A DNA stretch of 64,000 bases from Amoebidium appalachense (taxonomy: Eukaryota; Protista; Ichthyosporea), in assembly GCA_963693365.1 (NCBI GenBank), contig CAVNZM010000021.1, forward strand, positions 1 through 64,000, in the 5' to 3' direction. Positions within the stretch are counted from its first letter, which is position 1. Each line of letters begins with the position of its first letter. Below are positions 311-41,506 of this stretch, one piece after another. The notes beneath the pieces are model-generated. The model was not told where the DNA came from. It saw nothing but the letters and a program-made list of their open reading frames with translations, and made no database searches. A program made the position numbers and the translations under genes.

Positions 311-549
311 CTTGAATGGTAACCTTAGATCTCAGGCTGTAATCTTATAAATCTCAAGTATCAATCTACTTAATAATTACTAGGCTAATCCTGGCTGTGC
401 CAGGGCAACGCCTCAATAAAGAACGGTATGCAAAATAACAAGCCTGTGCCTGTGCAATAAATCTCCAAAGCAAACATCTTGCAAAAAACAACGTCGGTAC
501 GTGTTTGTTTGTGTGTGTGTGTGTGGTCGCGGCGGCCGCCTGTGTACCT

Positions 550-4857: not shown

Positions 4858-6318
4858 CTACATGCTTTGTGTCTCTGCCTCTGCGCACTGCGCCCGCTTG
4901 CCCCATTGTTTAGCAACAAATCTGCGCCGCACGCGTTTGGTACGTGGCTTGGGAATGAGTTCCAGCTCATCCTCGATGTCTAGGGGCTTGATGCCCGGAA
5001 ACTCCTTTTCAAACAAAACTCTAGTGCGGTAGAAGCTACAAGTCTGGCTGATCTCGGGCATCTTCTCGGCAAACCATGCCTCCGTGTTGTACACCACCGT
5101 GTAGGCCATCTGTGCGGTGATCTCGGTGCAGTACTTCACCTTGCGGCCCCACGAGGCCCCCGCTCGCAGCTTGATGGCGCCCGCAAGCACCGACCTCGCC
5201 ATCACTGTGTTCACGCTATCCTCGACGACGTGTCCCAGCACCTGTACGTTGAGTATCCCCTCGACAAACTGCTGGTACAGAGTGGTCGGGCCCACGGTGC
5301 TGCCCTTGAACAGTGCCGCCACAATGCTGTTGCCGAGGTTGAGCAGGCGCACGCGCAGGTGGGGGTACCCGTCCAGGGTGCAGCCGTCGGGGCTGCTGGG
5401 TAACACGCGCTTGTTGAGGGTGTTGGGGTCGCTCTCGAACTGTTCCATGAGGGCCACGTTGATCTGCGTGGCCTGCTGCAGCATCAGCGTCTTCTGCTTG
5501 TCCAGCTCCTTGTGCTGCATCACCAGCTCCTTGCTCTCACGCACGGCCATGTTGAGCAGGTCGATGGTGAGGTTCTTATCCTTGATGGTCTCGTTCTTCT
5601 CCTTGAGCAGCGGCATGAACTTGCTGTCGAAGAACGACGTCAGCATGCCCAGCATCTGCTCACCCGTGTCCGCCCGGGCAGCACGCACCTCGTCCATGTC
5701 GATGGCCATCTTGCTGGTGGTGGCCCCAGTGTAGCTGTCGCAGATGTCGATGACGTCCGCCAGCACCGTGTAGTCGCCCGTGAACATGCGCGAGAGCAGC
5801 GCGTCCGTGTGCACGGCAAAGTCGGTGGAGACGTAGCGGGCAAGCGCCGGGAAGAGCGCGATGTGAACGAAGGTGCCGCGCAGTGCCAGGTCGCCGGTCT
5901 TCTTGTTGGCATTTGAGGTGTCGATGACGTCATCCATGGTCACGTGACGAGCGGTGCCCATGGGCACCGCTCCTTTTTGATTGGCTGACTGATCGACCTT
6001 CTCGATGATCTTGTTGATGACATCCATGTTCTTGCGGCTCCACAGCACCACCTTCTTCTCGGTGTCTTGACCTGTCTTATCCATGTTGTACTCGCGCCCC
6101 ACGTTGCACAGCATGGTGCCGTTGAAGTAGACGTGCCCGTTGGGGTAGGTGGTGGTCACGGTCAGCACCTTGTCGCCGAAGTCCATGGCGGGCGGGGCGC
6201 GCACCTCCTTGAACGCGGGGTAGGCAGGGGTTGCCGGCTGTGGGGCAGGAGCGACCATTTGTTCCTTGGGCGCAGCGACGTTGATGTCGAACTCCATGTT
6301 TGCTGGGTTGTTTGTCAT
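4858..6318 (-). CDS. KilA-N domain protein with uncharacterised C-terminal domain
   Basis: N-terminus nearly identical to 3344-4438; C-terminal domain shared with 41739-42641; alternative start 6297. Confidence 0.85.
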   Translation of the reverse strand: MTNNPANMEFDINVAAPKEQMVAPAPQPATPAYPAFKEVRAPPAMDFGDKVLTVTTTYPNGHVYFNGTMLCNVGREYNMDKTGQDTEKKVVLWSRKNMDVINKIIEKVDQSANQKGAVPMGTARHVTMDDVIDTSNANKKTGDLALRGTFVHIALFPALARYVSTDFAVHTDALLSRMFTGDYTVLADVIDICDSYTGATTSKMAIDMDEVRAARADTGEQMLGMLTSFFDSKFMPLLKEKNETIKDKNLTIDLLNMAVRESKELVMQHKELDKQKTLMLQQATQINVALMEQFESDPNTLNKRVLPSSPDGCTLDGYPHLRVRLLNLGNSIVAALFKGSTVGPTTLYQQFVEGILNVQVLGHVVEDSVNTVMARSVLAGAIKLRAGASWGRKVKYCTEITAQMAYTVVYNTEAWFAEKMPEISQTCSFYRTRVLFEKEFPGIKPLDIEDELELIPKPRTKRVRRRFVAKQWGKRAQCAEAETQSM

Positions 6319-7438: not shown

Positions 7439-7560
7439 AGTCTGTTTGGCCCGGCATCGAGTTTGTCAACTCGCGTCGGTGGACAGGACAGGATGCTCAC
7501 ATGCGCCAAATAAACTTCCCGCTTCTTGTTTACCCAATCCGCACCTTGCAAATAAAATCC

Positions 7561-7947
7561 ATGCAGACAGGGAACATGCGCACCACCCCTGCGCTCACCC
7601 TTGAGCAAATCCTGCGCGACCGTGCTGCTATGCGTGCCTTCCGTGCGTTTTTAGGTCGCGAGTATGCGGGGGAGAACGTCGACTTTTTGGACATGCTCTT
7701 GCGTTTCAAGGCTGAACCATGCGTCCCGCTTGCGCTTCTTATCCATGACTGGTACCTTGCACGGGATGCGCCCTACCCCCTCAACATCTCCGAGCAGGCC
7801 CGAAAGCGCAGCGGTGTGCCGCTGGGCCGGCTGTCTGCAGATCTCTTCAGCGACGCGGAGCGCGAGGTGCGGGCGCTTCTGCAGGGCGACAAAGTTCCAC
7901 GCTTTGCGCGCGAGTACGTGCCCGCGCACGCGTCGGAAGGGCAGTGA
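7561..7947 (+). CDS. Stand-alone RGS (regulator of G-protein signalling) domain protein
   Basis: TLEQILRD...AFRAFLGREYAGENVDF...YLARDAPYPLNIS...LFSDAEREVRALLQGDKVPRF matches the RGS-box consensus. Confidence 0.9.
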   Translation: MQTGNMRTTPALTLEQILRDRAAMRAFRAFLGREYAGENVDFLDMLLRFKAEPCVPLALLIHDWYLARDAPYPLNISEQARKRSGVPLGRLSADLFSDAEREVRALLQGDKVPRFAREYVPAHASEGQ

Positions 7948-8740
7948 AGGTGTGCAGCACAAGCCCGCCGAGCAGGATGAGAACAAGGCCCTGTGCGACA
8001 AACAGTGCGTAGGCTATGCAGCCGTGCCAGAAGAAATCGAGGTCGGTAGCCGACCATATGATCTGGTCAAGGGCAACAGCCAAGCCGCAGAACAGGGAGT
8101 AGACCGTTGCGCACATCAGCACTCCCCGCACGATACCTGACTCTGGGATGGCAGTGTGGCGTATGATACTTTCAACGTAAGTACAACCGGCCACCAGGAG
8201 AACCACGAGGATGTACTGTGTAGCCATGTGAAAGTCGGCATAGGTCTCATACGAGCACGTTTCGTTGCACGTACACAACCCCGTCAGACCCAGTACAAGG
8301 GCGGGGGCCATTACGACCGGTGGGGCCCAGGTGGTTGTCCAGGGTGGTTGTCGGACGCCGCAGAAGAGGGTACCGTTGGTTCCTGTCATGCCGCACACTA
8401 TGCGCACCAGCAGCCCCAAGGGGGAAAGAAGCATGAGCAACTTGGTTACCCAATATAGTACCCACAACCGACAGTCACAGGCATTGTGCGGGACCGTTGC
8501 ATAGATAACCCATTGGTACATGTGTGCTGCGATGCATAGTGCCGGTACATGAAACAGGTACCCCGAGTTTGCTGTCGCACTTAGATACCTTCCGCTGACT
8601 GTAGGGCCGAAGCGCTTGTGAATATACACACGTAGGGCTAGGGCTATCCCGATAACGACAGAGGCGTACACGAACAGCAGAAGCCTAAACACGGACGCAA
8701 CATGCCCCACTGTCTCGATGCTCAGGCTGGTTGAAGGCAT
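7847..8740 (-). CDS. Seven-transmembrane GPCR-like protein
   Basis: Seven hydrophobic segments; Cys before TM3 (ACDCRLW) and in the loop after TM4 (CTCNETC). Confidence 0.65.
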   Translation of the reverse strand: MPSTSLSIETVGHVASVFRLLLFVYASVVIGIALALRVYIHKRFGPTVSGRYLSATANSGYLFHVPALCIAAHMYQWVIYATVPHNACDCRLWVLYWVTKLLMLLSPLGLLVRIVCGMTGTNGTLFCGVRQPPWTTTWAPPVVMAPALVLGLTGLCTCNETCSYETYADFHMATQYILVVLLVAGCTYVESIIRHTAIPESGIVRGVLMCATVYSLFCGLAVALDQIIWSATDLDFFWHGCIAYALFVAQGLVLILLGGLVLHTFTALPTRARARTRAQSVELCRPAEAPAPRAPRR

Positions 8741-12446: not shown

Positions 12447-13838
12447 ATGAGCGTACACTACACACAGTTGTTAGGGCCGAGGCTCCCTAAGCTCGCGCCC
12501 CGACCTCAAACTGTGGCGATTCCAGGCAGCTGTACAACTAAACATGGTCTTTTGCACAATATCACCAGCTCGGGCCGACGCGGACGTCATATGCGAAAAA
12601 AGGGACTCGAAAACCTACGACGGCAACAAACAAATGACACGCGACTTTCTGATTCGAAAAAGATTTATTTTAAAGCTCTACACACCCCTCGGAGCGATTT
12701 CGATGCTTTGGTACCCGGATTGGGCTCTTTTCCTCTGCAGCAAGCCGTCGATTCTGGCACCACCTCTCTCACTCCGGTTTCAGCAGCAACCGTCGACGGC
12801 ACCGGCTTTGAATTCGATTTGGGGTTGGGCTCTTTTCCTCTGCAGCAAGCCGTCGATTCTGGCACCACCTCTCTCACTCCGGTTTCAGCAGCAACCGTCG
12901 ACGGCACCGGCTTTGAATTCGATTTGGGGTTGGGCTCTTTTCCTCTGCAGCAAGCCGTCGATTCTGGCACCACCTCTCTCACTCCGGTTTCAGCAGCAAC
13001 CGTCGACGGCACCGGCTTTGAATTCGATTTGGGGTTGGGCTCTTTTCCTCTGCAGCAAGCCGTCGATTCTGGCACCACCTCTCTCACTCCGGTTTCAGCA
13101 GCAACCGTCGACGGCACCGGCTTTGAATTCGATTTGGGGTTGGGCTCTTTTCCTCTGCAGCAAGCCGTCGATTCTGGCACCACCTCTCTCACTCCGGTTT
13201 CAGCACCAACCGTCGACGGCACCGGCTTTGAATTCGATTTGGGGTTGGGCTCTTTTCCTCTGCAGCAAGCCGTCGATTCTGGCACCACCTCTCTCACTCC
13301 GGTTTCAGCAGCAACCGTCGAAGGCACCGGCTTTGAATTCGATTTGGTGTTGGGCTCTTTTTCTCTGCAGCAAGCCGTCGATTTCGGCACCACCTCTCTC
13401 ACTCCGGTTTCAGCAGCAACCGTCGACGGCACCGGCTTTGAATTCGATTTGGTGTTGGGCTCTTTTTCATTGCAGCAAGCCGTCGATTTCGGCACCACCT
13501 CTCTCACTCCGGTTTCAGCAGCAACCGTCGACGGCACCGGCTTTGAATTCGATTTGGTGTTGGGCTCTTTTTCTCTGCAGCAAGCCGTCGATTTCGGCAC
13601 CACCTCTCTCACTCCGGTTTCAGCAGCAACCGTCGACGGCACCGGCTTTGAATTCGATTTGGGGTTGGATATCACAGAAATCGAGAAAATACTCGGCAGT
13701 ACCATCACACCCTCCAACAAAATGTCACCGATCAACTTAACCGAAGTTGGGTTAAACACGTTTTTTTGTGAACCGATCGATGAATTCGAAGAGATATGTG
13801 TTTTCTTATTGAAAGACGAATTGAAAGGATCGGTCTAA
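12447..13838 (+). CDS. Protein with a basic N-terminus and nine 35-aa acidic repeats
   Basis: TATA-like GTATAAAAGG at 12376; repeat GLGSFPLQQAVDSGTTSLTPVSAATVDGTGFEFDL. Confidence 0.65.
   Translation: MSVHYTQLLGPRLPKLAPRPQTVAIPGSCTTKHGLLHNITSSGRRGRHMRKKGLENLRRQQTNDTRLSDSKKIYFKALHTPRSDFDALVPGLGSFPLQQAVDSGTTSLTPVSAATVDGTGFEFDLGLGSFPLQQAVDSGTTSLTPVSAATVDGTGFEFDLGLGSFPLQQAVDSGTTSLTPVSAATVDGTGFEFDLGLGSFPLQQAVDSGTTSLTPVSAATVDGTGFEFDLGLGSFPLQQAVDSGTTSLTPVSAPTVDGTGFEFDLGLGSFPLQQAVDSGTTSLTPVSAATVEGTGFEFDLVLGSFSLQQAVDFGTTSLTPVSAATVDGTGFEFDLVLGSFSLQQAVDFGTTSLTPVSAATVDGTGFEFDLVLGSFSLQQAVDFGTTSLTPVSAATVDGTGFEFDLGLDITEIEKILGSTITPSNKMSPINLTEVGLNTFFCEPIDEFEEICVFLLKDELKGSV
12720..13668 (+). repeat. 105-bp tandem repeat, nine copies
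   Basis: Units start at 12721, 12826 ... 13561; near identical, with variants clustered in the last units. Confidence 0.97.
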
Positions 13839-19367: not shown

Positions 19368-20084
19368 CTACAAAGCCGTGACTGTCCTGACCGAACGGCT
19401 GTGAATGTGCTGTTCCAGCATGCGGCAAGTCTCTGTGAGTGCGGGATAGAAGGCGTCCTGAAGGTGCTCGGTCATTACACGTTTGCGGTTGGACTTTCGG
19501 CACAATAGAAGAGCTTCGGTAAGCACACACTCCGTGAACGACTGGATTATGCAGGCGCACGCGATTCCGCTGATAACACTGACCCGCCACTTCACGGTAG
19601 GGTCAAGGGCCAGGAGGGTGTTCCGAAATCGTGAAGGGGGGAACACCAGCTTACATCTACGTGTGATGGTGGTACGCGTACCGACCGAAAGGTTGTTGTC
19701 CTCGTAGAGTGCGAGGCTCTCCTGGATGCGCGACAACATCCCCCGCACCACACTGTCCGACAGGAACACGCGTGCGGCACCGACTACATGCCGAAGCTTC
19801 ACGGTTACGTGGCGTGCGTCACCCAGCATGTGGACAATACACATTCCCAGTTTCTCCTGCAGGGCGGTCTGGAACATGTTGAGGTAGTCCAGCGCGTGCT
19901 TGTTTATCGCCAGGGTCGACATGCGTTTCAGCAGGCGGTACGTGTAGGCATTGTAGGATTTGCACTTCTCCCGGGGAGAAAACGACTCCGGGGACGGAAA
20001 CGCGGTGTCGGGGTAGTAGCACGGTAGCACCTCGGGCAGGCAGTTCAGCACGCCGTTGTTCTGGGCAGGGCATGGTATCTCCAT
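19368..20084 (-). CDS. Fused histone H2B-H2A doublet
   Basis: SYNAYTYRLLK...INKHALDYLNMF...TVKLRHVVGAARVFL (H2B-like), then TRRCKLVFPPSRF...RKSNRKRVMTEHLQDA (H2A-like). Confidence 0.85.
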   Translation of the reverse strand: MEIPCPAQNNGVLNCLPEVLPCYYPDTAFPSPESFSPREKCKSYNAYTYRLLKRMSTLAINKHALDYLNMFQTALQEKLGMCIVHMLGDARHVTVKLRHVVGAARVFLSDSVVRGMLSRIQESLALYEDNNLSVGTRTTITRRCKLVFPPSRFRNTLLALDPTVKWRVSVISGIACACIIQSFTECVLTEALLLCRKSNRKRVMTEHLQDAFYPALTETCRMLEQHIHSRSVRTVTAL

Positions 20085-21954: not shown

Positions 21955-23000
21955 ACGTCCCCATGGCTGTCTGCGTCTGGTCGCTCGAGGCATTTGTCTC
22001 TGGAACAAATAAACCCAGTGGATTGACGCTTGGGGTTTCATAATGTGGCAGAATCCACGGGACCAGCAACCCCAACCCCTCCAGCGGCACAAACCCCCTC
22101 TTGAGAACCAGCCCCGATCCCAGGATTACGTGCACGTGGTCGCCCCTCGCCAGCGTGTTTGCGATTTCGAGAAGCTTGACGGTATCGAGCTCAAAGGCGG
22201 TGCCCTCGAAACGTTCGCTGACCCGCCGCAGGGCCTGGAGCGCGCGCAGCAGCAGGTCGTCCCCGTTAAGGTGTAGGTGTATCACGGACGGGCTGTTGAT
22301 GAACCGGTGGGTCTCCCAGCGGTACACGGCACTGCGGGCCATCTCGACGTACATGCGGCCTTCTAGGTGCGCCGGCAGACGTGCGGCACATCCGTGACTC
22401 CGGTAGAAGGCGACGGCAGCCTGGTAGGCCAGCGAGGTCTCAGAAGAGCGGAGTGTCATCACTGAGCTTGGTCAGCAGCTCCTTGTACTTTATACGCGAC
22501 GGCGGCTGCGGCATGACCTTGGCGAGCTTGCTGTCGATGAGGGCCTCCAGCTGGCGGTCGCGCTCGCGCCTGCGCTGCTCGCGCTCCTCGCCCTGCTGGT
22601 CACGGGTGGCCTGCAGGGACGTGGTGTGCTTCTCGAGCATCTCGCGCTGCTGCTGCACCTGCTGCTCGAGGGCGGCGATGTGCTCGCGGGCCTTCTCGTA
22701 CTCCTCGAGGCGCTTGTCGAGCTTCTCGTAGTTGGTGCGTGCCTGCTCCCAGTACTCGGCCTTCATCTTCTCCATGCGGTCGGCAAGCTCGGTCTTGGAC
22801 ACGATCTGCTGCTCCAGCTTCTCCTGCGTCTCCTTGACCCAGCGCTCCAGCTCCTTGTTGCGGCGGTCGTACGCCTCGAGGTCGGTGTTCTTCTGCAGGA
22901 TGGCGCGGCGGTACTCCTCCTGGGCGGCCTTGAACTCCTCCTGTGCGGCCTCGAACTTCTTCTCCATCATCTTGGCATCCAGTATAGCCCCGATGTCCAT
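21947..23000 (-). CDS. Coiled-coil protein, probably one gene frameshifted near 22445
   Basis: ORFs 22440-23000 and 21947-22462 overlap in different frames. Confidence 0.55.
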
Positions 23001-23034
23001 TGGTAGGGGACACAGAAAATAAAAGTGCACGTTT

Positions 23035-23739
23035 TCAATCCTCGTTGCCGTACGACTGGAACTTCCTGTCGCCCGCCCGGAAGCGGATGGAGGGCTCGGC
23101 CCGCCAGTAGTAGAGCTTGTCCTCGGGACGATTTGACTTGTGGGTGCGGTCCAGGACCAGGATGCCGTAGTTCTGGGTGTACTCGTTCAGCAGCTCGTTG
23201 AACTCCTTGAAGGACTCGATGAAGCCGAAGAAGCTCTCCCAGAGCTTCCGGCGTTCCAGCTGGCTGTCCTCGGCGAACACGAAGAGACAGTTGATGTTGT
23301 TGCGGTACTCGGGCGGGATGCTCTTTGCGTACTGGATGCTCATGAGGTAGAACCAGTTGAAGTGGCGGCCGTTGAAGAAGATCTGGCGGATGGTGGGGTC
23401 GTTCTTGAGCTGCTTGTCGTAGATGACGTCCTCGGCAATGCAGAAGATGTTTGGGGAGGTGCGCTTGGTCCAGCCCTTGACCCTGTCCTTCTGGCGCTCA
23501 TAGAGCTGGCGCAGCTCGGTGGGGCGGAACTCGTTGTAGATGAACGCCTTGTTGAGGTAGCGGCCCCAGAACTGGTTGCCGTCCTCGGTGGCGCTCATGG
23601 CGATGCCGGCACTGAGGTACTTGCGCTTGTGGTAGAGGACGTTCGCCATGGCGATGCTCTTGCCGCTGCCGCGGGGCCCGACAAAGACGCACACGGCCTC
23701 GGGGGGGATGGTGTTCGGATAGAACGGCTGGAGCTTCAT
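23035..23739 (-). CDS. A32-like genome packaging ATPase
   Basis: Walker A GPRGSGKS, Walker B IAEDV, FFNGRHF, SIQY...IPPEYRNN. Confidence 0.96.
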   Translation of the reverse strand: MKLQPFYPNTIPPEAVCVFVGPRGSGKSIAMANVLYHKRKYLSAGIAMSATEDGNQFWGRYLNKAFIYNEFRPTELRQLYERQKDRVKGWTKRTSPNIFCIAEDVIYDKQLKNDPTIRQIFFNGRHFNWFYLMSIQYAKSIPPEYRNNINCLFVFAEDSQLERRKLWESFFGFIESFKEFNELLNEYTQNYGILVLDRTHKSNRPEDKLYYWRAEPSIRFRAGDRKFQSYGNED

Positions 23740-23908
23740 GTCTGCAGTAGGGCGAGAAATCATCTGGGCGGGGCACCGGCAAGCAAACTGGCCCAATGCA
23801 TATCAAACTGGCCATATGCATGACGAAGAACAATAAGCTCAACAACAACCCCCCCCCCCCCCCCCCCCCCCCCCAATTCCCCTACTCCCCACCAGCCGCC
23901 CGATTCCC

Positions 23909-24418
23909 CTACTCCCCACCAGCCGCCCGCTGGGAGAGGTACTCGACAGGCACAAACTCGAGAAGTGCCGTCGTTGTGTACACGCTACGTCTACTCACAT
24001 GCATGCCGCAAACACGGGCACGGTTCTTGAAGCGTATGTACGAGGCATTGTGGCTGTTGTCGTGTGGTCCCCATGTTATGTTCATCCCGAACCGGTCCTC
24101 CTCCTCCTCATCGCCATAAAGCACGAGGTACAGCACAAGCGGCACGCCCTGGAGGTTCACGTTCATTTTCCACGCGTACATGCCCCGCCCCGCCTCATTC
24201 TGCGTGGACCACTCGGCCACATGCTCAATCAGCAGCAAGAATTCGTCCTCCCCATCCTCGGTGTCCTCGCACGGCAATGTCAGTTTCAAATACGTGCTGG
24301 CGGGGCGTATGAGGCTCAGCAGCTCGGCGAGATCCGAGCCGTTGTCTATAAAAGACGCTGCGGTTGGCGAGGGGTAGCCGTCGGCCTGGTTGGCAAGCAG
24401 CGAGTCAATGTTTCCCAT
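23909..24418 (-). CDS. Hypothetical protein
   Basis: MGNIDSLL start; 27-bp duplication at the stop. Confidence 0.6.
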   Translation of the reverse strand: MGNIDSLLANQADGYPSPTAASFIDNGSDLAELLSLIRPASTYLKLTLPCEDTEDGEDEFLLLIEHVAEWSTQNEAGRGMYAWKMNVNLQGVPLVLYLVLYGDEEEEDRFGMNITWGPHDNSHNASYIRFKNRARVCGMHVSRRSVYTTTALLEFVPVEYLSQRAAGGE

Positions 24419-24589
24419 ACGACAGGGCAACATTATTCTGACCTCGAGCAGTGTTTCACGTCCGTGGCGCCGCGACGAGCAAACTGCCCATCTATAAAAG
24501 GCACCGCATACTCCCCCTAACCCCATCCCATCCACCTCCCTCGCCCGCCCCCCCCCCGCCCCCCCCCCCACCCCCCGCTGGCCTACCAT

Positions 24590-24809
24590 TCGTCACGTGA
24601 CTTACATAGAACAGGATGCACTGTGAGCTGCAAGCTGGTAGCTCAGGCTACCGCTCGTCACGTGACCTGTAAGGGACATCAGCCAATCATAGAGGAGTGG
24701 TGGCTGTAGCCACCGGTCGTCACGTGACCTGTATGGGACATCAGCCAATCATAGAGGAGTGGTGGCTGCGCCATGGCGATGCTCTTGCCACTGCCACGGG
24801 GGCCGACAA
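24590..24809. repeat. Tandem CCAAT/palindrome/GTCACGTGAC cassettes ending in an A32 fragment
   Basis: TCGTCACGTGAC at 24590, 24655, 24717; 62-bp period; 24769-24809 matches 23644-23684 at 38/41 nt. Confidence 0.88.
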
Positions 24810-25162
24810 GCCAAGCAGTTGACTACAGCCGGTTAAAATACCAAGGTGTCGCTTCCAGATGCCTGCAGTCTCGTGATCGGAATACCGTGTGTGTGTGTGT
24901 GGAGATGAAGGAGGGGCGGCTCGGGGTTACGTTTTCTTTCTCTTGTGCTTCCTGTGCTTTTTGGGCTTTGGTTTATTCTGTGACTAACTCTCTTAGTACT
25001 CCACGCAAACCACTTCTTCATCCGTGCCATACCCGTGGCCAATAAGAAGCTTCTAATAGCACGGACCACGCTGAAACAGTTTCCGGGGCCCCCCTGCCCC
25101 CCTTCCCTTTCTATCTTTCTTTTTTTCTTTTCTCCCCCTCCCCCCCCCCCCTCCCACCCCCC

Positions 25163-25729
25163 TCAGCTACACTGCACGCGCTTCTCCCTGATGGCCGCCG
25201 TGATGCCGTCCAGGTCGATATCATCGGACAGCTCAATCGGCCTGTTCGGATGCAGCAGCGCGTTGGCCAGCAGCACCACAAACGCCCGGTGCCCCACGCT
25301 GTACGGCCTCGACCGGTCGAGCGCCACAATAAACACGGCCTCGTCCGACTCCTTCTTGACCACGAACGACATGAGCGACCCCTCGTTCTCCACAAACGCA
25401 ATAACCACGGCTCCGGCCTCGACCTTGCTCACGAGCCTCTGCAGCTCCATGAGCTCGCCGGGGCTGTCGGAGATCAGCAGCTTGGAGAACAGGCTGAACT
25501 GGATGCCCGTGAAGCTGTTGAGCGCGCGCAGCAGGAACTTGCCCAGCGAGTAGCTGTTCTCCACCAGCAGGCTCTTGAGCGAGATCATGGTCTCCTCGCG
25601 GTCCGGCCGCGGCATGCTCTCGAGCGCGGCGGCGGCGTCGACCGAGTCATACACGCACTCGTACCAGCTCTTGTATCCGGTCACGGGGAGGGCATACTGG
25701 TGCCATTCGACATAGAAGCGCATCGGCAT
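25163..25729 (-). CDS. Hypothetical protein
   Basis: ORF with GC-rich third codon positions. Confidence 0.65.
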   Translation of the reverse strand: MPMRFYVEWHQYALPVTGYKSWYECVYDSVDAAAALESMPRPDREETMISLKSLLVENSYSLGKFLLRALNSFTGIQFSLFSKLLISDSPGELMELQRLVSKVEAGAVVIAFVENEGSLMSFVVKKESDEAVFIVALDRSRPYSVGHRAFVVLLANALLHPNRPIELSDDIDLDGITAAIREKRVQCS

Positions 25730-25769: not shown

Positions 25770-27188
25770 TTATGGGAAGCGGATGGTCGGCCAATTTTCC
25801 TGTCGTGCTAGGTCGTTCCATGCCTCCATGACCACTCTGAATCCTGTGTAGTTGTTGGCAAGCTGTTCCTGGTTACCCGACTTCCCCCCAATCCTGATAT
25901 GTTGCACGTGTCTACGCACCAGGCACTTAAACTCAAACTCAAAATTCCGAGCCTCGATCTTGTCTTTTGCTGGAATGGCAAGGAGCACGTTATCCAAAAT
26001 CTTGTCACGGCATTTCTCCTTTTTGTAGCGCTTGGCAATGCCATCTTGTCCGGTCATTCCAAACATCAGCGTGCCATCGCAGTTGTCGACAAAGTACATG
26101 CATGGTCCGGTCTTTGCTTTGTCTGTTACCTCCTTATTGAGCTCGCCGAGGACGTAAAACCGCGAGTCGAGGCGCGACAGCAGGGCCTGTGACTCTTTAT
26201 TCTGTTCGTGTGCTAGGGCCATTGTTCTCCTCTTGGCCTCCTCCTTCCGTTCACACTCCTCAGCCCGGGCCCTTGCTTCTTCCACCCTGGCCCTGGCAAT
26301 GCGCTCCTCCTCGTCTGCTCTAACCTGAGCTGCTAGTGCCTCTGGGTTGAGGTTAACTGCAGCCTGTTTCTGAAGCATCACCACCTTCTCCGCAAGCTCG
26401 ATTGCCCTCTCTGGTAGATATCCACCATTCTTCTTCATCATCCAATATTTGATGTCTGTTTCAACCACCACCATTCGCGGCCGCTTAACAACTATCGTGT
26501 CTGGTGTAGACGGTCTCTTTCCGATTGCCTCGGTCATGTCGATGTGCACTGACTGTGTGTGAGATCCGTCGCCGCGTCCGTGGTCTGCAATACGGACAAG
26601 ATCCTTCAAAAAATCCATATTGCCGAGGTGTGACTTCAGCATCACGTCGTCCCAGAAGGTAAGGAGCGACGGAAAGCAGTAACGCAGGAATGCGGGTGCC
26701 AGTTCAAAGGCCATCCACGCCCCTCGATACATTTCCAGCTCTGGTTCCATCTCATGAGTAACATAGCAATTGTTCGGTAGTTTTTTGATTCTTGTATACT
26801 GCCCGCGAACCAGCCAATCCGGGGAACTTCCTTCCGGTAAGAAGTTCCTTTTGCATAGTGTAAATGTTTTATCTACGACCGACTTGTTGTTGATGACCCA
26901 TTGAGCAGCACCCTTTCTTGTTTGCTCCTCCTTCGATGCACTCATGGCCGAGTACCCCGCGTTGAAGAAGACATGCCCGGCGAACTTTGTCAGGTACGTG
27001 AGCACGCTCCCCCCATCTGGCGCAAAAAATGGGCGAACGCCGGGCCACTCGGGCACAGAGCTCGTGTCCACGCGTGTTTCGATTTCCGGGTGCCATTCTG
27101 GGCCCAGAGGGGTGTGGGTTGCTGCAGAATTCTTTTGGACACGGTCGTATGCAGGCGGTGGGGCACTGGGGACGTGTGCTGTGGCCAT
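25770..27188 (-). CDS. Divergent KilA-N plus T5orf172/GIY-YIG-like protein
   Basis: HVFFNAGY...RGAWMAFELAPAFLRY; C-terminal CMYFVD...MFGMT...KRY. Confidence 0.75.
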   Translation of the reverse strand: MATAHVPSAPPPAYDRVQKNSAATHTPLGPEWHPEIETRVDTSSVPEWPGVRPFFAPDGGSVLTYLTKFAGHVFFNAGYSAMSASKEEQTRKGAAQWVINNKSVVDKTFTLCKRNFLPEGSSPDWLVRGQYTRIKKLPNNCYVTHEMEPELEMYRGAWMAFELAPAFLRYCFPSLLTFWDDVMLKSHLGNMDFLKDLVRIADHGRGDGSHTQSVHIDMTEAIGKRPSTPDTIVVKRPRMVVVETDIKYWMMKKNGGYLPERAIELAEKVVMLQKQAAVNLNPEALAAQVRADEEERIARARVEEARARAEECERKEEAKRRTMALAHEQNKESQALLSRLDSRFYVLGELNKEVTDKAKTGPCMYFVDNCDGTLMFGMTGQDGIAKRYKKEKCRDKILDNVLLAIPAKDKIEARNFEFEFKCLVRRHVQHIRIGGKSGNQEQLANNYTGFRVVMEAWNDLARQENWPTIRFP

Positions 27189-28675: not shown

Positions 28676-28881
28676 GGAATTTTCATTTTTTTTTCAACGT
28701 TTTTTTTCTCTTTTTCGTGCAGCGTTTGTTGTTCTGGGGGGATGGAGCATCTGGGCCTTTGTTAACCGTTGGGCCCAGAAGGGGGTTTTTTTTTTCCCGG
28801 CCCTCCCCCGTGACAAAAAATTTTTTTTTGGGGGGTATTTTTAAAAAAAAAAAAAATTTTTCGGGGTTTTGTTTTTTTTTT

Positions 28882-28912
<31 letters not shown>

Positions 28913-28989
28913 GGCCCCCGCCCGCCCCGGGTTTTTTTCTTTTTTCCCCCCCCTAAAAAAAAAAAAAAAAAAAATTTTTTCCAACCAGA

Positions 28990-30324
28990 TCACACCAGCC
29001 GAATATCATCCTCTCCGTAAACTTCCTTGAACGCATTTGAGACGCGTACATAGTCCGCGGCAAACATCTCCCGCTTGTTCCCAACTGCACACCTCACCGG
29101 CTTCAGTTGGTTCTGCACCAGTTTCTCGAACTGCTCGGCCTCCTTCTTGTTGCGGTGGGGCATGCACAGGATGATAAGCTCCTTCATGTCATGGGACCAG
29201 AGGTCATACTTGTAGCGTTCGAATAGAGAGTTCCCTGTGTGCCCAATCTTGATGTAGCCGTCGATGTGCAGTGCGTACACACATGCCCCTGCCGCCGCCT
29301 TGAGAGACCACTCGAAGTTTAGCTGCCGCCAGGCCACAAAGTGCACGTCCAGTCCCTTGAGCTCGGCCTTCATCTCGCGCACAGCCTTGACCATGGCAAG
29401 CGTGGAGTCGATGCCCCGCTGTATTGTGTCCTGTTTGGCTTTCTCGGTACGCTCAGCCTCCTCGGCGCGCTTGACAGCGGCGAGCGCTTCGGGGTTGTCA
29501 TTGGTACAGAAATCGCGATGTACAGTAACCACAAAGTGGTGCAGCTGCTTCATGGCCGTGTCAAAATCAACCCCGGGTTTGAACCAGCGATCCGGATCGA
29601 GCATGGCATCCAGTGTGCTTCGTTTGACCACTGCCGACTCGGCGTCCTCTTCTCGCTCACGCTTCCGGGACCCCTCGTTCATGTCGATGGTCACGGACCG
29701 AGTCCTGCATCCATCACCTCGTCCCTGGTCGGCAATGCGAATCAACTCGGGGAAGAAGTCCATCTGGCCCAGGTGCGACTTGACCATCACCCCGTCCCAG
29801 AACTGGCGCAGGTCGGGAAAGCAGTAGCGCAGAAAGGGGGCCGTCAGCTCGAAAGCCATCCAGGTGCCACGAAACATCTCGAGGGTGGGTGTCAGGCCAT
29901 GAGTTGCAAATGCACATACAACAGAGTTATCGGGTTGAGAAACTGTAGGGAGCTTCTTGATGTTGGCATAACCCGACCGTATCAGCCAATCAGAGGAGAG
30001 GCGCTCGTGAGCGCTTGTCCTCTGAATCAGCCTCAGTACATCTTCCACTAAAGCAGAATTGTTCCTCTTCCAATCCATGGGTTTCTTTTTTACCCCCGCC
30101 TCCTCAGCCCCCTTGCCCGCCGAGTACCCCGCGTTGAAAAACACGTGCCCGTCGTACTTGCTGAGCCACGTGAGCACCCTCCCCCCGTCGGGCGCGTAGA
30201 ACGGGCGCACCCCGGGCCAGTCGGGCACGGACGAGGTGTCGACACGCGCCTCATTGCCAGGAGCGGGCTTCCAGGTGGGCCCGATGACGGGAGTGGAATA
30301 GGGCGGGGGGTTGTACCGTGCCAT
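28990..30324 (-). CDS. Divergent KilA-N plus T5orf172/GIY-YIG-like protein
   Basis: Paralog of 25770-27188; CVYAL...YIKIGHT...ERY...REMF; TATA at 30356-30366. Confidence 0.82.
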   Translation of the reverse strand: MARYNPPPYSTPVIGPTWKPAPGNEARVDTSSVPDWPGVRPFYAPDGGRVLTWLSKYDGHVFFNAGYSAGKGAEEAGVKKKPMDWKRNNSALVEDVLRLIQRTSAHERLSSDWLIRSGYANIKKLPTVSQPDNSVVCAFATHGLTPTLEMFRGTWMAFELTAPFLRYCFPDLRQFWDGVMVKSHLGQMDFFPELIRIADQGRGDGCRTRSVTIDMNEGSRKREREEDAESAVVKRSTLDAMLDPDRWFKPGVDFDTAMKQLHHFVVTVHRDFCTNDNPEALAAVKRAEEAERTEKAKQDTIQRGIDSTLAMVKAVREMKAELKGLDVHFVAWRQLNFEWSLKAAAGACVYALHIDGYIKIGHTGNSLFERYKYDLWSHDMKELIILCMPHRNKKEAEQFEKLVQNQLKPVRCAVGNKREMFAADYVRVSNAFKEVYGEDDIRLV

Positions 30325-32675: not shown

Positions 32676-32897
32676 TCAGAGCCTGGAGCCTACAAACACG
32701 TCGATGTCGTGACGGGAGAACGGCCTGTTTCTGTAGCGGCGTGTCAGCTCGGCCTCCAGTCTGCGAGTGGTGGTGACATCAACCCTGCTGCGGCTTTTAT
32801 ACTTACGCATTACGGCGTTGAAAATACGCTGGAGGTTGCGGTTGCCAGTCAGGTGCAGGAGCCCGAACCGTCTGAGTTTGCGTTTAGCCAGGGGCAT
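32676..32897 (-). CDS. Small basic protein
   Basis: 73 aa, Arg/Lys-rich. Confidence 0.45.
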   Translation of the reverse strand: MPLAKRKLRRFGLLHLTGNRNLQRIFNAVMRKYKSRSRVDVTTTRRLEAELTRRYRNRPFSRHDIDVFVGSRL

Positions 32898-35800
32898 AGT
32901 GCCAGCCCCAATTATTTACTGGCGAGGACATCTGCGGTTGAGGGTTTGGGAACGGCAGCTCGGGCGTCCGTGCCTGGTAGGCATACCACGGCTGTGCCTG
33001 GTAGGCAGTAGCCCAGGCGGACCTTGCGGCTGCCTGAGGGGAAAATTCCCGATCCTGCCCGGTAAAGCCAATGGCCTCAGACGGGACCTGTGGGTATTGG
33101 TTGGTGGGCGGGACCCCGGCTTGTTCCGAAGGGACGTAGGTCATCTGCTGAAGCGGGAATCCGGGACTGGGAAGCTGCGGCTTTGGCAAAATCCTACGCA
33201 GGTTCGACGGTGCAGGGAAGGCAACACCCATTGGGGCCTTTGGTAAAACCCTACGCAGGTTCGAGGGTGCAGCGTAGGCAGCACCCATTGGGGCCTTTGG
33301 TAAAACCCTACGCAGATCCGAGGGTGCAGCGTAGGCAGCACCCAACACGCTGGAACTATGATTCTGCTCCGTGTGTTGCCGCTTGCGCTTCTTTGATTTG
33401 GGTGGCGGCGGGGCTGGCTCCCCCACCATGCTCGCTGGGGTAGGGGGGCTGAACTGGTCAAACCAATTATGTGTCAGACTGGAGGGCTGTATAGGCCTAC
33501 GAACGTCCACTACTTCCGCAGAGTCCATGATCCGCTTGCGCTTCACTGATTGGCGTGGCGGCGGGGCTGGCTCCCCCACCATGCTCGCTGGGGTAGGGGG
33601 GCTGAACTGGTCAAACCCATTATGCACTGGGTTGGAAGTCTGGTGCAAGCTCATCGGGCTTGAGTCCACGTCCATGCTCGCTTGGCTGGCGGTGGAAAAC
33701 TGGTCAAATCCATTACGCATTAGACTGGAATTCTGGTCTAAGCTCATCGGGTCTGGGGTCGGAGGGTTGAACTGGTCAACGTCCATGGGGGTTGTGGGGG
33801 GTTGAACAGTAGCAGCAGGGATGTCGGTTCCCGCTTGAAGTGGAACTTCTTCGTTGGGTGCCTGTGCTGGATGGGAGGGATCGGGTATGTCGGTGCCCCC
33901 CTTCTTAGCGGCGTCCTTTTTTCGTTTGGCGCGCTTTTCGTAGATTGATGCGAACAGACCATCGACCTCGGCAGGGTTCTGGGTCTGCACACGGGCTCTG
34001 CGCAGATCGTTGAGCTGATCGCGGGTGGTGAAGCTCTCTTGAAGCTCGGCCTTCAGCTCCTTGTTCAGGGCGCCCAGCACAGCCCTTGCACGTACGCTAG
34101 CAGCCGCAAGGACGTCCGCGTTTTGCGAGAGCGACTCCGGAAGCACGGGTGTGGCAGGAGCTTCGGGCTTGGCCGGCTTGTGCTTTGCGGGTCGTTGTGT
34201 GGCCACCAGCTCCTTGCGCTGCCAGGCCTTGGGGTCGTTGCTGAAGAGCTCCCACCGTTGGTCGCCGACTGAAGGGGCAACGCGCGCATATGCACGCACC
34301 AAATCGTCTGTGCTGCGGCCCCTGGACAAGGTGTCCGTCACGGACGCGCGGCCTGCAGGCGTGAGCCGCCACAGCGCGCCTGCGTGGCTGATGAAGCATG
34401 CGGGGTTCTGCAGTATGCTGTCGCGCAGGCGGCGTAGCTGGAAGAGGGGCCAGTTGGGGTTGTTGGGCCACTTGAGGGGCTTGTCCTGTGGGTTCGTAAC
34501 CTTAAGTACGCGCGTGTAGATGGTCCCCTCGGGGGCGAAGAAGCCCATGCGGTCCTTGCGGATGTTTGCATTGCGGGTGATGTTGACTGGCAGGCCGTAC
34601 CCGCACTTTTTCAACCAGTTGACGACATAGTCCGGGTTTTTCTCGATCAGGGCGCAGCCGTCCTGGATCAGCTTGCGCAGGTGGTAGTAGGTTTTGGGAT
34701 AGTGGGCGCGCACATGCTGCTTGACGAACCCGATAGCCAACTCGGCAATGTTGTATTTGGAGTTGTAAGGTGGCAGCCACTGGAAGCGCCAGCGCTTGCG
34801 CACGGCCAGCTGCTTGGTTTTGTCTTTGTTTTCCTCGGTGTTGTGCACGGGGGCGTTGTCCATGCACAGAATGGCGCGGTCGGTGCGAGGATCGACGGCC
34901 AACACATGCTCAAGAAACACACTGAAGGTACGCCCGTCGAGCTCGTCCGCAACAAGCTCCTTCTTCGAGAGCGGGGCCTCCCGCTCGCGGCCGTTTGGCG
35001 CAAGATGCCGGTAGTTGAACAGGGGGTCGTCCGACGGCCGTGGGCTGAGGATCAGGTACTTGACAACGGCACGCATGGATCCGTCACTTTGCTGCTTGGG
35101 AAATCCCACGGCTATCAACAGCTTGGTGCCTATGCCGCGAAGCTTGGGCTTGGGCGTCTTGTGGTGCGAACCGCGGTGGCCCCACACACGCCCTGGCGTC
35201 TCGTCAAGGTACACCGAGGCCTCGTCAATGAACACAAGGTTCTGGCGGTTGTCCTGTAGGTACGGCAGACGCTCAACCTCAAAGTACTGCGTGGCGGCGG
35301 CCACGGACCGCACAAACGTGTTGGTGGGGTCGCCCTCGCCGCGGCGGAACGTCAGCCCGAGGCGCCTTCGCCACTTGTTGAGCGTGGACACCGCCACGGC
35401 CATGCGCTCGGCCTCGGGCAGCCCCGGGATGGCGTTGTAGGTGGCGATGAGCTTCTCGCTGGTCAGGCTGGGCACCTTCGTGGTGAGCTCGTACAGCACG
35501 ACCTTCTGAACGTCCGTCAGCTTAGTCGCCTTCTCGTTTGCCTTCCCAAGGTTGAAGCCCTGGCGGCTGCCAAGCTCGCCGTGCTTAATTGCACGCGAAA
35601 TGACCCGGCGCACTGTCTGTGGGCTTATCTTCAGCCGCCGCGCAATGACGGTGGCCTTCTCGTCCCGAAGGTGCCCGAGCAGGATGGCGTCGCGAATGTC
35701 CTGCGCGTACGCCTTTCCGCGCCCTAGGCGCCCGACAGGCTGCTCGGCCGTTGTCAGTGTGTGCACTTCGATTTCAACAGGCGGGGCGTTTGTCAGCGGC

Positions 35801-37644
35801 TTCTCCGCGTACCAATGTCCCCCCGGCACCAGCAGCAGCCGGGCTCCATCGGGGCCCTCTACCCAGATGGCCCCCTCTGTTGAGTCTGGCCCGCCATGGG
35901 CGACCTTGTTGTCGGGGAGAAGGCCTAGGGTGAAGGGGTCTTGCTTCACGTGGCTGCGGGTCGGCAGGGTTTCGTAGACCACTGAGCGGACAGGCGATGG
36001 GCTGCCTGGCGCCTCGACATTGAGCAGGTCACCCGTGGACTCCAGGGGCATCATCCTCTGGCGCTCCAGCTGGTACAGCGCAAGAGGGGACCGCCCGTCG
36101 GGCGGCTGCGGGTAGAACCCAACAAAGGTGGCATTGGACTTGTAGACAACAGGCCTGCCCGTGTGCTCCACAACGTGCATGGCCACAAACATGGTGCGGG
36201 GCACGTAACGGTCAAGCCGCAACACGAGGTACGTGAGGGGTCGGAAGTGGTTTGATATGTTCGGATCCACAAACACAATCCCGCACACCGAATCTGTGAT
36301 GTCGGTGGTTGTGTTGACGGCGGCAGTCGGCTGGCGAGGCTTCCCGGCGGTGTACAGTCCTGAAAGCTGCTCCCGCTTTCGCGCAGCCCAGGCGGCGACG
36401 GCCGTGCGTGCGTTTTCTGCTGACACGCCCAGCGCATGCGCAACTGTAGCGAGCTCCTGGGCTGTCGAGTCCGCGGTGGTAGGCGCGGGCGCCTCTGCCC
36501 TTCGTCTAGTTGCAACCGCACCGATGATTCGTTTGCGTACATCGTCGTAGCCCTGCCGGACCATGCTCTCCCCTCCGCTGGTGCTCTTTTTCACCTCGTC
36601 AAAGAAACGATTGTGCATCTCGAACTCCTGCTCGCTTGCGCGGGTTTCACCTGCCCGGGGCCGCCCCCTAGCGAGCTGAAAACCCCTGGCATTTTCCAGC
36701 GGCAGATCGGTATCTTTAGCAAGTGCTTCGAGGATGGGCTTCGCCCGCTCATAGAACTCCTGCTGTGAAAGGTCGCTTGCGACCCTCATTGTCAGGTCCT
36801 TGAGGGCCTGCCGCATGGTGTCGCGGTCGGCACCGGATGCACGCAGCTCACGGGCCAACTTTGCGCGCTCGGCTATCAGGGTCTGAAGCGCGTGTTTGTA
36901 GGGGTAGGCCCGCTCGTCGTCCGGCCGGTCGACCCCTTCCACGAATTCAGGTCGGGGAAGCCCGGGCACCATCAGGGCCAGGGCCTCGAGCATGTTGGCG
37001 TCCCCGGCATCTTCTGACTGCTCGACTCTGTCTTCTTTCTTTCGCATGGCGTCATTCGTTTTCCGTATGCTTTGCCCCTCCAGTCGCTGAGCCTCAGCAA
37101 GCGCGGCGTACGCCATTCGCATGCGCTCCGGATGGTCCGGACGGGCAGGCTGACGGCCAGGGTGGTTTTGCCATGCCTTGGTAAACAGGGAGTGACCAGT
37201 CGAATCAGTTACACCCTCAAGCTTGACTAGGCGCGGTGTGGTTGTGCGCACATACACCTTGTCCAGGACTCCCTGGACAACTTCGGCGGTTTTGCGCGCC
37301 TCGTCTTGAGGGTCGTTGGGTGCGGCAAGATCTTTCCCCGCAAGCTCCTCCCACCAGGTTGCGGATTGGGGAAGCGGTGCCGGGGCTGACGACGCTGGTG
37401 CGTACATGGGGTCGCGGATGCGGAACCGTGGATTCAGGCCGCTGTCCCTTGCCTGTTTGTCAGTGCCTGTGTTGTAGGACGGGTGCTGCCGATCCTGCAC
37501 GAGCTGTGCGAGGGGAAAGGGAAAGTCGGCCAGGGGTTCAAGATAGAAACGGCCGGGATTCTCGGCACTTGGCCAGGCTTCGGCCACGACTTTATTGGAC
37601 TGGGTGTCCACTACAATATATCCAGGCGTACGTTTGCGGTCCAT
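32884..37644 (-). CDS. ~1590-aa protein with an embedded HTH and IS630/Tc1-mariner DDE domain
   Basis: IARRLKISPQTVRRVI; VFIDEA; CMDNAPVH; LPPYNSKYNIAE (D-D38-E); low-complexity C-terminal repeats. Confidence 0.85.
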   Translation of the reverse strand: MDRKRTPGYIVVDTQSNKVVAEAWPSAENPGRFYLEPLADFPFPLAQLVQDRQHPSYNTGTDKQARDSGLNPRFRIRDPMYAPASSAPAPLPQSATWWEELAGKDLAAPNDPQDEARKTAEVVQGVLDKVYVRTTTPRLVKLEGVTDSTGHSLFTKAWQNHPGRQPARPDHPERMRMAYAALAEAQRLEGQSIRKTNDAMRKKEDRVEQSEDAGDANMLEALALMVPGLPRPEFVEGVDRPDDERAYPYKHALQTLIAERAKLARELRASGADRDTMRQALKDLTMRVASDLSQQEFYERAKPILEALAKDTDLPLENARGFQLARGRPRAGETRASEQEFEMHNRFFDEVKKSTSGGESMVRQGYDDVRKRIIGAVATRRRAEAPAPTTADSTAQELATVAHALGVSAENARTAVAAWAARKREQLSGLYTAGKPRQPTAAVNTTTDITDSVCGIVFVDPNISNHFRPLTYLVLRLDRYVPRTMFVAMHVVEHTGRPVVYKSNATFVGFYPQPPDGRSPLALYQLERQRMMPLESTGDLLNVEAPGSPSPVRSVVYETLPTRSHVKQDPFTLGLLPDNKVAHGGPDSTEGAIWVEGPDGARLLLVPGGHWYAEKPLTNAPPVEIEVHTLTTAEQPVGRLGRGKAYAQDIRDAILLGHLRDEKATVIARRLKISPQTVRRVISRAIKHGELGSRQGFNLGKANEKATKLTDVQKVVLYELTTKVPSLTSEKLIATYNAIPGLPEAERMAVAVSTLNKWRRRLGLTFRRGEGDPTNTFVRSVAAATQYFEVERLPYLQDNRQNLVFIDEASVYLDETPGRVWGHRGSHHKTPKPKLRGIGTKLLIAVGFPKQQSDGSMRAVVKYLILSPRPSDDPLFNYRHLAPNGREREAPLSKKELVADELDGRTFSVFLEHVLAVDPRTDRAILCMDNAPVHNTEENKDKTKQLAVRKRWRFQWLPPYNSKYNIAELAIGFVKQHVRAHYPKTYYHLRKLIQDGCALIEKNPDYVVNWLKKCGYGLPVNITRNANIRKDRMGFFAPEGTIYTRVLKVTNPQDKPLKWPNNPNWPLFQLRRLRDSILQNPACFISHAGALWRLTPAGRASVTDTLSRGRSTDDLVRAYARVAPSVGDQRWELFSNDPKAWQRKELVATQRPAKHKPAKPEAPATPVLPESLSQNADVLAAASVRARAVLGALNKELKAELQESFTTRDQLNDLRRARVQTQNPAEVDGLFASIYEKRAKRKKDAAKKGGTDIPDPSHPAQAPNEEVPLQAGTDIPAATVQPPTTPMDVDQFNPPTPDPMSLDQNSSLMRNGFDQFSTASQASMDVDSSPMSLHQTSNPVHNGFDQFSPPTPASMVGEPAPPPRQSVKRKRIMDSAEVVDVRRPIQPSSLTHNWFDQFSPPTPASMVGEPAPPPPKSKKRKRQHTEQNHSSSVLGAAYAAPSDLRRVLPKAPMGAAYAAPSNLRRVLPKAPMGVAFPAPSNLRRILPKPQLPSPGFPLQQMTYVPSEQAGVPPTNQYPQVPSEAIGFTGQDREFSPQAAARSAWATAYQAQPWYAYQARTPELPFPNPQPQMSSPVNNWGWHYAPG
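33180..33620. repeat. Coding repeats (~60 bp x3; ~165-bp spacing x2)
   Basis: AAPSxLRRVLPKAPMG repeats and FDQFSPPTPASMVGEPAPPP twice. Confidence 0.85.
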
Positions 37645-41228: not shown

Positions 41229-41506
41229 CCTTGAAAAATTGACCACACCAAAACTGGTGACTCTCAGTAAGGTCGATTTGATTGGTGGAAACGGTGGGTG
41301 ATGTATGACGTCATCGAGATGAATTCGGCCAATCACATCAACCTTACTGCCAGTAGGATTGAGAATCGCAAAGCGGTTTGCTGCTCATGAAATTCGTCAC
41401 GACTTGCCCGTTCGGCAATTTGGCGAAGGTATAAAAGGAGTCGTGCGCGTCTGAATCATTCAGTCCACCCAAGGAGCCCTTCCAGCAACACGGATCCCGC
41501 ATCAAC

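What the first reader, a model, noticed from the sequence alone, without database searches (positions are those of the whole stretch)
24741..24815. 41-nt A32 Walker-A fragment with only synonymous changes, inserted at the exact centre of a cassette palindrome
Seen: the preceding unit reads CAGCCAATC...GGTGGCTG|TAGCCACC. The next unit is nearly identical up to GGTGGCTG|, then continues CGCCATGGCGATGCTCTTGCCACTGCCACGGGGGCCGACAA (24769-24809) and an AGCCA remnant. The insert matches the resident A32 gene (23644-23684, VGPRGSGKSIAMA) at 38/41 nt. All three mismatches are synonymous third positions (GGG>GGC, CGC>CGT, AGC>AGT). Inference: it came from a functional A32 of a related virus or paralog rather than a decaying local copy, and was captured at a break in the palindrome centre. 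That resembles spacer acquisition. If transcribed on the + strand it would be antisense to A32 mRNA, a candidate anti-competitor RNA. It is a single event, so accidental break repair is equally possible.
Basis: partly seen in the sequence, partly recalled or inferred. Interest (0 to 1): 0.85.

Follow-up and report, generated by a model that had tools for sequence, protein, structure and literature searches.

The report
Repair patch in giant-virus palindrome repeat
A 41-base copy of a giant-virus DNA-packaging gene sits at the broken end of a short palindromic repeat beside that gene; it matches a sibling version of the same gene and is likely an ordinary DNA-repair scar, not an immune-like spacer.

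Summary
The 41-mer is real: 24769-24809 matches the A32 gene (23644-23684) at 38/41, all three changes synonymous, and it starts exactly at the centre of the cassette palindrome. It is not a clean insertion: the right arm and the CACGTG box do not resume, 'AGCCA' also fits the start of the CCAAT motif, and 44 nt of unknown origin follow. The donor question is largely answered: contigs from public runs carry A32 haplotypes that match the insert at 40/41 (one run) or 39/40 (two runs) and continue as A32; 12 of 14 listed A32 variants are synonymous. So the donor is a sibling allele of this same Nucleocytoviricota lineage, and an antisense RNA would pair with the resident gene too. In sibling copies the repeat lies about 165 nt from this very segment, the range of templated repair insertions. 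The repeats have no unique spacers, no second capture was found, and no Cas-like integrase was seen in the window. The junction is unconfirmed by independent data. Verdict: most likely (0.7) a one-off template-switch repair scar in a probably endogenous giant virus. A more interesting side observation: the same CCAAT-hairpin cassette sits inside one loop of several KilA-N genes.

The parts
23035..23739 (-). A32-like packaging ATPase gene (234 aa)
   Evidence: fold matches to Pandoravirus and Medusavirus A32 proteins, TM 0.87-0.91
23644..23684 (-). Template segment of A32 (Walker A region), 55-95 nt from the start codon, at the end of the gene nearest the repeat
23781..24669 (.). 889-nt segment (with an ORF of no known family) that sibling copies lack; there the repeat follows A32's upstream DNA after 32 other letters
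   Evidence: tables 5 and 5c (joint in 3 of 4 runs); for the ORF
24650..24768 (+). Tandem 62-nt cassette: CCAAT motif, palindrome, CACGTG box; 1.9 copies, with a diverged partial unit upstream (24590-24649)
   Evidence: go-back joints in run X8
24699..24714 (.). Intact palindrome, 7-bp arms around a 2-nt centre (24706|24707)
24761..24768 (+). Left half of the next palindrome, ending at its centre: left junction
24769..24809 (+). 41-nt A32 patch, same orientation as the resident gene; 38/41 to the resident gene, 40/41 to a sibling haplotype
24810..24853 (.). 44 nt of unknown origin; its first letters fit either the palindrome's right arm or a CCAAT motif; 24854 onward has a different left neighbour in other copies
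   Evidence: loose ends at 24854 in X1 and X8
5931..5988 (-). Second copy of the cassette, in frame inside a KilA-N gene, with a different (perfect 12-bp) palindrome and the same 37-nt CCAATC-to-TCACGTGA spacing; no central insert

Best explanation
The 41-mer is a copy of part of the neighbouring A32 gene and likely a one-off templated repair insertion, made when the tandem CCAAT-palindrome repeat probably broke at a palindrome centre and the free end was likely extended on a sibling allele of A32 before rejoining downstream DNA. Shown: the patch, its junction at the centre, loss of the right arm, an A32 haplotype that matches it at 40/41, and sibling copies in which the repeat lies about 165 nt from the template. 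Inferred: a break or stalled fork at the short palindrome; pairing of the broken repeat with the same repeat in a sibling viral copy (or use of the resident gene when it still had those letters); a short backward template switch into the 5' end of A32, perhaps helped by the shared GCCA; a second switch to the 44-nt piece; rejoining. Inferred: no function. Inferred: the virus is a multi-copy endogenous element in a eukaryote.
For: Donor: A32 variants 23665 G>A and 23671 G>A, the insert's letters, occur in contigs of 4 of 4 runs (table 3); X16 has a 136-nt contig over 23615-23749 with 3 differences from the resident gene, all synonymous, that matches the insert at 40/41 and runs on as A32 at both ends (record 10; tables 7, 8); X1 record 5 and X6 record 17 match at 39/40. 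12 of the 14 A32 variants listed are synonymous (38 further variants over the whole stretch were not shown). Proximity: template 1,125 nt away here, 165 nt in the layout with the 23780-24670 joint (3 of 4 runs); only 3.75% of the window lies within 1.2 kb, and Walker A is simply at the near end of the gene. Delins anatomy with a second unmapped piece. The array end is unstable: another copy ends inside the same palindrome at 24765 followed by unrelated DNA (X6, X8), and X8 has the intact arm. Literature: templated inserts copied from nearby DNA, with multiple switches and errors (passages of PMC7407515, PMC8421209, PMC5068794); breaks at palindrome centres (PMC4940405 passages).
Against: Exact microhomology is weak: 0 nt at the left junction (GCCA is shared but offset), 1 nt at the right. 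The palindrome has only 7-11-bp arms, far shorter than the several-hundred-bp palindromes known to break at the centre. At 41 nt and 165-1,125 nt distance it is longer and farther than most published POLQ inserts (mostly under 25 bp and within 20 bp; within 100 bp). The resident gene lacks the two donor letters, so an extra step (use of another copy, or later change of the resident gene) is needed. The third difference (24802) was not among the listed alleles. The 23780-24670 joint rests on a 30-letter side at likeness 80.
Confidence: 0.7

Rival explanations
1. Assembly or consensus artefact: a chimeric read or a mis-joined repeat placed 41 nt of a sibling A32 copy at the end of the array.
For: The region is repetitive and has several A32 haplotypes per run (table 8); 24854 onward has another left neighbour in X1 and X8; the third difference sits on a G4/C3 run boundary, a place where long-read consensus often errs (own knowledge).
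Against: The patch reproduces a real phased haplotype (X16 record 10) and ends exactly at a palindrome centre; no listed run holds more than 0.53 of the stretch's words and the resident A32 carries letters that X1's contigs lack (23719), so the source is probably another strain, in which a private junction is unsurprising.
Confidence: 0.12
2. Old local duplication from the resident gene that later drifted, the two transitions being methyl-CpG deaminations (or the resident gene having since been converted by another copy).
For: Both transitions are C>T at CG in a GCG context on the coding strand; methylation of CGC/GCG is described in a host of such elements (PMC11244446 passages).
Against: The same two letters are carried together by A32 contigs in independent samples, so they need not have arisen in the insert; the window shows little CpG loss (CG o/e 0.95); none of the 41 positions shows a non-synonymous change. 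The 'resident gene later converted' version is compatible with the best explanation and differs only in which copy was the template.
Confidence: 0.1
3. Programmed, spacer-like capture: the palindromes are cut at the centre and pieces of related viral genomes are stored there, giving RNA antisense to a competitor's A32.
For: Junction exactly at the centre (1 of 62 positions in the unit); patch covers the conserved Walker A motif (2.7% for a random 41-mer of the gene); allele differs from the resident gene; + strand RNA would be antisense to A32; the repeat carries motifs that look like host promoter elements (CCAAT, CACGTG; labels recalled).
Against: Single event: 1 short gene-derived patch in the window self-comparison, none at the centres of the other cassettes examined; units are near-identical, no unique spacers; right arm lost; donor is a sibling allele of the next-door gene; such an RNA would pair with the resident message too; no Cas1, Cas2 or Cas4 family among 41 + 17 ORFs in Pfam or 39 in PADLOC; no Rfam family at threshold.
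Confidence: 0.05

Closest known systems
Templated insertions of alternative end joining (SD-MMEJ / polymerase theta) and MMBIR
   Same: Short insert copied from nearby DNA, loss of adjacent sequence, a second piece of unmapped origin, an occasional mismatch, little or imperfect microhomology (passages of PMC7407515, PMC8421209, PMC5068794).
   Different: Template is somewhat farther and the insert longer than typical; template is a sibling allele in a multi-copy viral family; the enzymes involved are untested.
Palindrome-centre breakage (human PATRR translocations)
   Same: Junction exactly at the palindrome centre (PMC4940405 passages).
   Different: PATRRs are hundreds of bp and over 90% AT; this palindrome is 16-24 bp and GC-rich.
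CRISPR spacer acquisition
   Same: A 30-45-nt piece of viral gene next to a partly palindromic repeat.
   Different: No repeat duplication around the piece, no unique spacers, capture at the palindrome centre rather than at a repeat edge (recalled), self-like donor, no Cas genes seen in the window.
MIMIVIRE of lineage A mimiviruses
   Same: A giant-virus locus holding a short sequence homologous to another viral gene (abstract of PMC6538805).
   Different: MIMIVIRE has four 15-bp copies of virophage sequence inside an ORF beside a helicase and nuclease; here one 41-nt copy of the virus's own gene type lies in non-coding DNA.
Medusavirus-related giant endogenous viral elements such as those described in Amoebidium
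   Same: A32, D5-like primase, PCNA, intron-poor gene-dense DNA, many related copies, isolate-specific content (PMC11244446 sections 7 and 10); A32 fold closest to Pandoravirus and Medusavirus entries.
   Different: The host of this window was not established; integration was not shown; the passages read do not describe this repeat.

Membership tests
CRISPR-type spacer array | Identical repeats separated by unique spacers | tested here: not met
   62-nt units 96% identical head to tail; in the KilA-N copy the flanks are constant and the palindrome varies
CRISPR-type spacer array | Acquired piece flanked by a full repeat on both sides | tested here: not met
   Right arm and CACGTG box do not resume after 24813
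CRISPR-type spacer array | Cas1/Cas2-like integrase linked to the array | tested here: not met
   None among 41 + 17 ORFs (Pfam) and 39 ORFs (PADLOC); window only, not every ORF; a YqaJ nuclease lies 21 kb away
CRISPR-type spacer array | Piece derives from a foreign genome | tested here: not met
   40/41 match to a haplotype that differs from the resident gene at 3 of 135 nt; best match in 81 other viral loci 24/41
CRISPR-type spacer array | Transcribed and processed into guide RNAs | not testable with these tools
   Only contigs were available for laying
MIMIVIRE | Several short copies of virophage sequence in an ORF beside a helicase and nuclease | tested here: not met
   Single copy, non-coding (only short stop-to-stop frames), donor is A32 of the same lineage
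Templated repair insertion (SD-MMEJ / MMBIR) | Insert copies DNA close to the junction | tested here: met
   1,125 nt in the window; about 165 nt in the sibling layout
Templated repair insertion (SD-MMEJ / MMBIR) | Accompanied by loss of flanking sequence or further template switches | tested here: met
   Right arm lost; 44-nt piece follows; other copies have another neighbour at 24854
Templated repair insertion (SD-MMEJ / MMBIR) | Microhomology at the junctions | tested here: inconclusive
   0 nt exact on the left (offset GCCA), 1 nt on the right
Templated repair insertion (SD-MMEJ / MMBIR) | Dependence on polymerase theta or BIR factors | not testable with these tools
   No genetics available
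PATRR-type palindrome breakage | Breakpoint at palindrome centre | tested here: met
   24768|24769 corresponds to 24706|24707
PATRR-type palindrome breakage | Long (hundreds of bp) AT-rich palindrome able to extrude a cruciform | tested here: not met
   7 perfect pairs, up to 11 with mismatches
Nucleocytoviricota | Core genes (A32 ATPase, D5-like primase-helicase, PCNA, YqaJ) | tested here: met
   no major capsid protein was identified in the ORFs scanned
Giant endogenous viral element | Joined to host chromosome DNA | not tested
   No whole genome held; several A32 haplotypes per run, an RGS-domain gene and a DDE transposase in the window are only suggestive

The most novel reading that the evidence does not exclude
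The CCAAT-palindrome-CACGTG cassette is a programmed cut-and-capture site of this giant-virus lineage: it is opened at its centre, takes up pieces of co-resident related viruses, and, being promoter-like, yields antisense RNA against a core packaging gene; the same cassette moving in and out of KilA-N genes would be its mobile form.
Probability: 0.05. Interest if true: 0.85.

Novelty: new member of a known kind. Interest (0 to 1): 0.17.

Why it matters
As a repair scar it matters little: it shows that sibling copies of a giant virus can template each other's repair and that this short palindromic repeat is a fragile spot. If the capture reading were true it would be the first spacer-like memory in a nucleus-associated giant virus or its host. 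The cassette family itself, sitting in the same loop of several KilA-N genes in either orientation, is the better lead for follow-up.

Tried and rejected
Junction check: five runs of four samples were laid. None of the 28 listed rows (64 not shown) bridges either junction, and 24812-24853 has no cover in 4 of 4 runs; contigs drop rare variants and no run looks like the source strain, so this is neither support nor refutation. Expression: no RNA holder listed; no evidence either way. Perfect-donor searches: exact insert pattern 0 hits in viral contigs and genome contigs; cassette pattern 0 hits in viral contigs; 44-nt piece 0 hits; single-protein A32 and KilA-N searches in viral contigs found no relative; metagenome contigs gave 1 weak locus; the alignment search kept 80 of 594 loci, all 36-42% identical, none with the cassette. 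Three loose-end or joint motifs from the runs do not occur in the window. No whole genome is held, so cassettes outside the window could not be scanned. Hairpins are not clearly enriched after CCAATC in general (4 of 44 sites in the top 5% by energy; 13 of 44 with stems of 6 or more against 8.6% background, a threshold chosen after seeing the sites). Covariation of the palindrome over 3 complete copies: 3 pairs changed on both sides, but 73 of 500 shuffles do as well, inconclusive. Rfam: 2 chance-level matches only. Single-sequence A32 fold failed (pLDDT 37); the alignment-based model worked. ESM Atlas gave no usable hit for the ORF at 23912-24418. The sigma-70 promoter scan is not meaningful for a eukaryotic virus. 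Earlier-finding look-ups returned nothing.

Full report
Setting. The window is gene-dense, intron-poor DNA of a Nucleocytoviricota-type virus: A32 ATPase at 23035-23739 (relatives at 71-79% and 37-43% identity; predicted fold closest to Pandoravirus and Medusavirus A32 entries), PCNA, YqaJ, patatin, Fic and RGS domains, KilA-N, C5 methylase, D5-like helicase and a DDE transposase. No whole genome is held. Twenty of 24 listed public runs hold part of 23000-25200, none more than 0.53 of its words. Several distinct A32 haplotypes occur within single runs (table 8), which suggests a multi-copy endogenous family like those described in PMC11244446 (I read part 1 of 9 of the text, sections 7 and 10, and keyword passages). 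Host and integration are inferred, not shown.

Observation. 24769-24809 is a direct repeat of 23644-23684 at 38/41 (blastn E 3e-9; 0 of 100 shuffles give such matches). The three differences are synonymous; 29 of 117 possible single changes are, giving p about 0.015. The patch starts immediately after the left half of the palindrome in the last unit of a 62-nt tandem repeat. It is not a clean insertion: the right arm and CACGTG box do not resume, the 'AGCCA' overlaps the patch by one letter and is also the start of a 9-of-10 match to the CCAAT motif, and 44 nt follow whose best match elsewhere in the window is 11 nt.

Donor. Laying contigs of four runs on 23400-25100 showed that G>A at 23665 and 23671, exactly the insert's two transitions, occur in A32 contigs of all four. 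In X16 one 136-nt contig covers 23615-23749 with three differences from the resident gene, all synonymous; laid on the insert it matches 40 of 41 letters and continues as A32 on both sides (record 10 and loose ends). X1 and X6 have contigs matching 39 of 40. The remaining difference is, by subtraction, 24802, which lies on a G4/C3 boundary and may be a private change, a repair error or a consensus error. Of the 14 A32 variants listed, 12 are synonymous; 38 further variants of the whole stretch were not shown. So the synonymous pattern reflects ordinary allelic variation of a constrained gene in the same viral lineage. Whether that haplotype is a whole, intact gene was not shown. No better donor was found in viral, metagenome or prokaryote collections.

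Geometry. In three of four runs a contig joins 23780 to 24670 with 32 other letters between, so sibling copies lack the 889-nt segment and have the repeat directly upstream of A32; there the template ends 165 nt from the first palindrome centre. A second joint (23760 to 24716) points the same way. The joint rests on a 30-letter side at likeness 80, so it is good but not ironclad. The Walker A codons are 55-95 nt from the start codon, at the end of the gene nearest the repeat, which explains why this motif was copied without invoking selection. Other copies end the array inside the same palindrome at 24765 with unrelated DNA behind (X6, X8), X8 also has the intact arm and go-back joints, and 24854 onward has another left neighbour in X1 and X8: the array end is a rearrangement-prone spot.

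Mechanism. Most likely (0.7) a break or stalled fork at the palindrome centre, extension of the free end on the adjacent 5' part of a sibling A32 allele, a further switch to the 44-nt piece, and rejoining. These steps are inferred. Published templated insertions have this anatomy (keyword passages only of PMC7407515, PMC8421209 and PMC5068794), and breaks at palindrome centres are known (passages of PMC4940405). Against it: microhomology is 0-1 nt, the palindrome is short, the insert is longer and farther from its template than most published cases, and the resident gene lacks the donor letters.

Spacer reading. It fails four tested features: no unique spacers, no repeat on the far side, self-like donor, no Cas-like integrase among the ORFs scanned (window only, not all ORFs). 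The self-comparison of the window shows no second short gene-derived patch at a cassette, and the other cassettes' palindromes have no source elsewhere in the window. An RNA from the + strand would pair with the resident A32 message at -85 kcal/mol against -100 for a perfect duplex, so it could not discriminate a competitor well. MIMIVIRE differs in every respect but the idea (abstract of PMC6538805). What remains in its favour is the exact-centre junction and the promoter-like motifs (CCAAT and CACGTG as host factor sites: recalled). Probability about 0.05. An assembly artefact (0.12) and an old local copy (0.1) remain open; the junction has no independent confirmation.

Side lead. The cassette also lies in frame inside KilA-N gene 4858-6318 (5931-5988, minus strand), with a different perfect palindrome and the same 37-nt spacing. 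CCAATC with an adjacent hairpin sits in the same loop of four KilA-N-like genes, twice sense and twice antisense, and in a fifth, frame-broken gene near 41700. The one homologue found (P0020, named by NCBI as a Daphnia sinensis hypothetical protein) appears to have two such units in tandem at the protein level. Covariation on three copies is inconclusive. Two literature searches (listings only, 0 and 2 papers) showed no title or abstract start describing this; that is a thin search.

Verdict. Real sequence feature, partly mis-described; donor is a sibling allele; most likely a functionless repair scar. Interest 0.17.

Noticed in passing
window 4089-4127 (-), 5931-5988 (-), 26811-26850 (+), 29983-30030 (+), 41702-41745: A CCAATC motif with an adjacent hairpin lies inside the same variable loop of four KilA-N-like genes, twice sense and twice antisense, always in frame, and in a fifth gene whose frame is broken near the cassette. 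Homologue P0020 seems to carry two units in tandem. Could be a binding site of the protein in its own gene, or a small mobile or recombinogenic element.
   Followed up: partly
window 41329-41362 and 41709-41742: Two 34-nt cassette copies (88% complementary) form an inverted pair 346 nt apart, one upstream of and one inside the gene starting near 41507.
   Followed up: partly
window 23781-24669: 889-nt segment with an ORF of no known family, present here and absent from sibling copies in which the repeat directly follows A32's upstream DNA; both layouts occur in the same runs.
   Followed up: partly
window 540-760: About five dispersed copies of a CATTGGACGCCTT motif (a CCAAT box on the minus strand) in non-coding DNA near the window start, possibly another promoter-like array or an element boundary.
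   Followed up: no
window 32884-37644 (-): 1,586-aa ORF with a central helix-turn-helix plus DDE_3 (IS630/Tc1-like) nuclease and long flanking regions with repeats: an unusually large transposase-like or Fanzor-unrelated DDE gene inside the viral DNA.
   Followed up: no
window 7501-8740: Convergent pair of an RGS-domain ORF and an ORF with several hydrophobic stretches that looks like a seven-helix receptor: a host-like signalling module inside viral DNA.
   Followed up: no
window 19368-20084 (-): 238-aa ORF with a weak histone-fold match, possibly a histone doublet as in medusa- and marseilleviruses (comparison recalled).
   Followed up: no
window 12612-13751: Nine 105-nt tandem units, 98% alike, open in three frames across both strands.
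   Followed up: no
window 28869-28974: T20-G-run and C-run-A20 form a 29-nt inverted repeat around 45 nt in an intergenic region.
   Followed up: no
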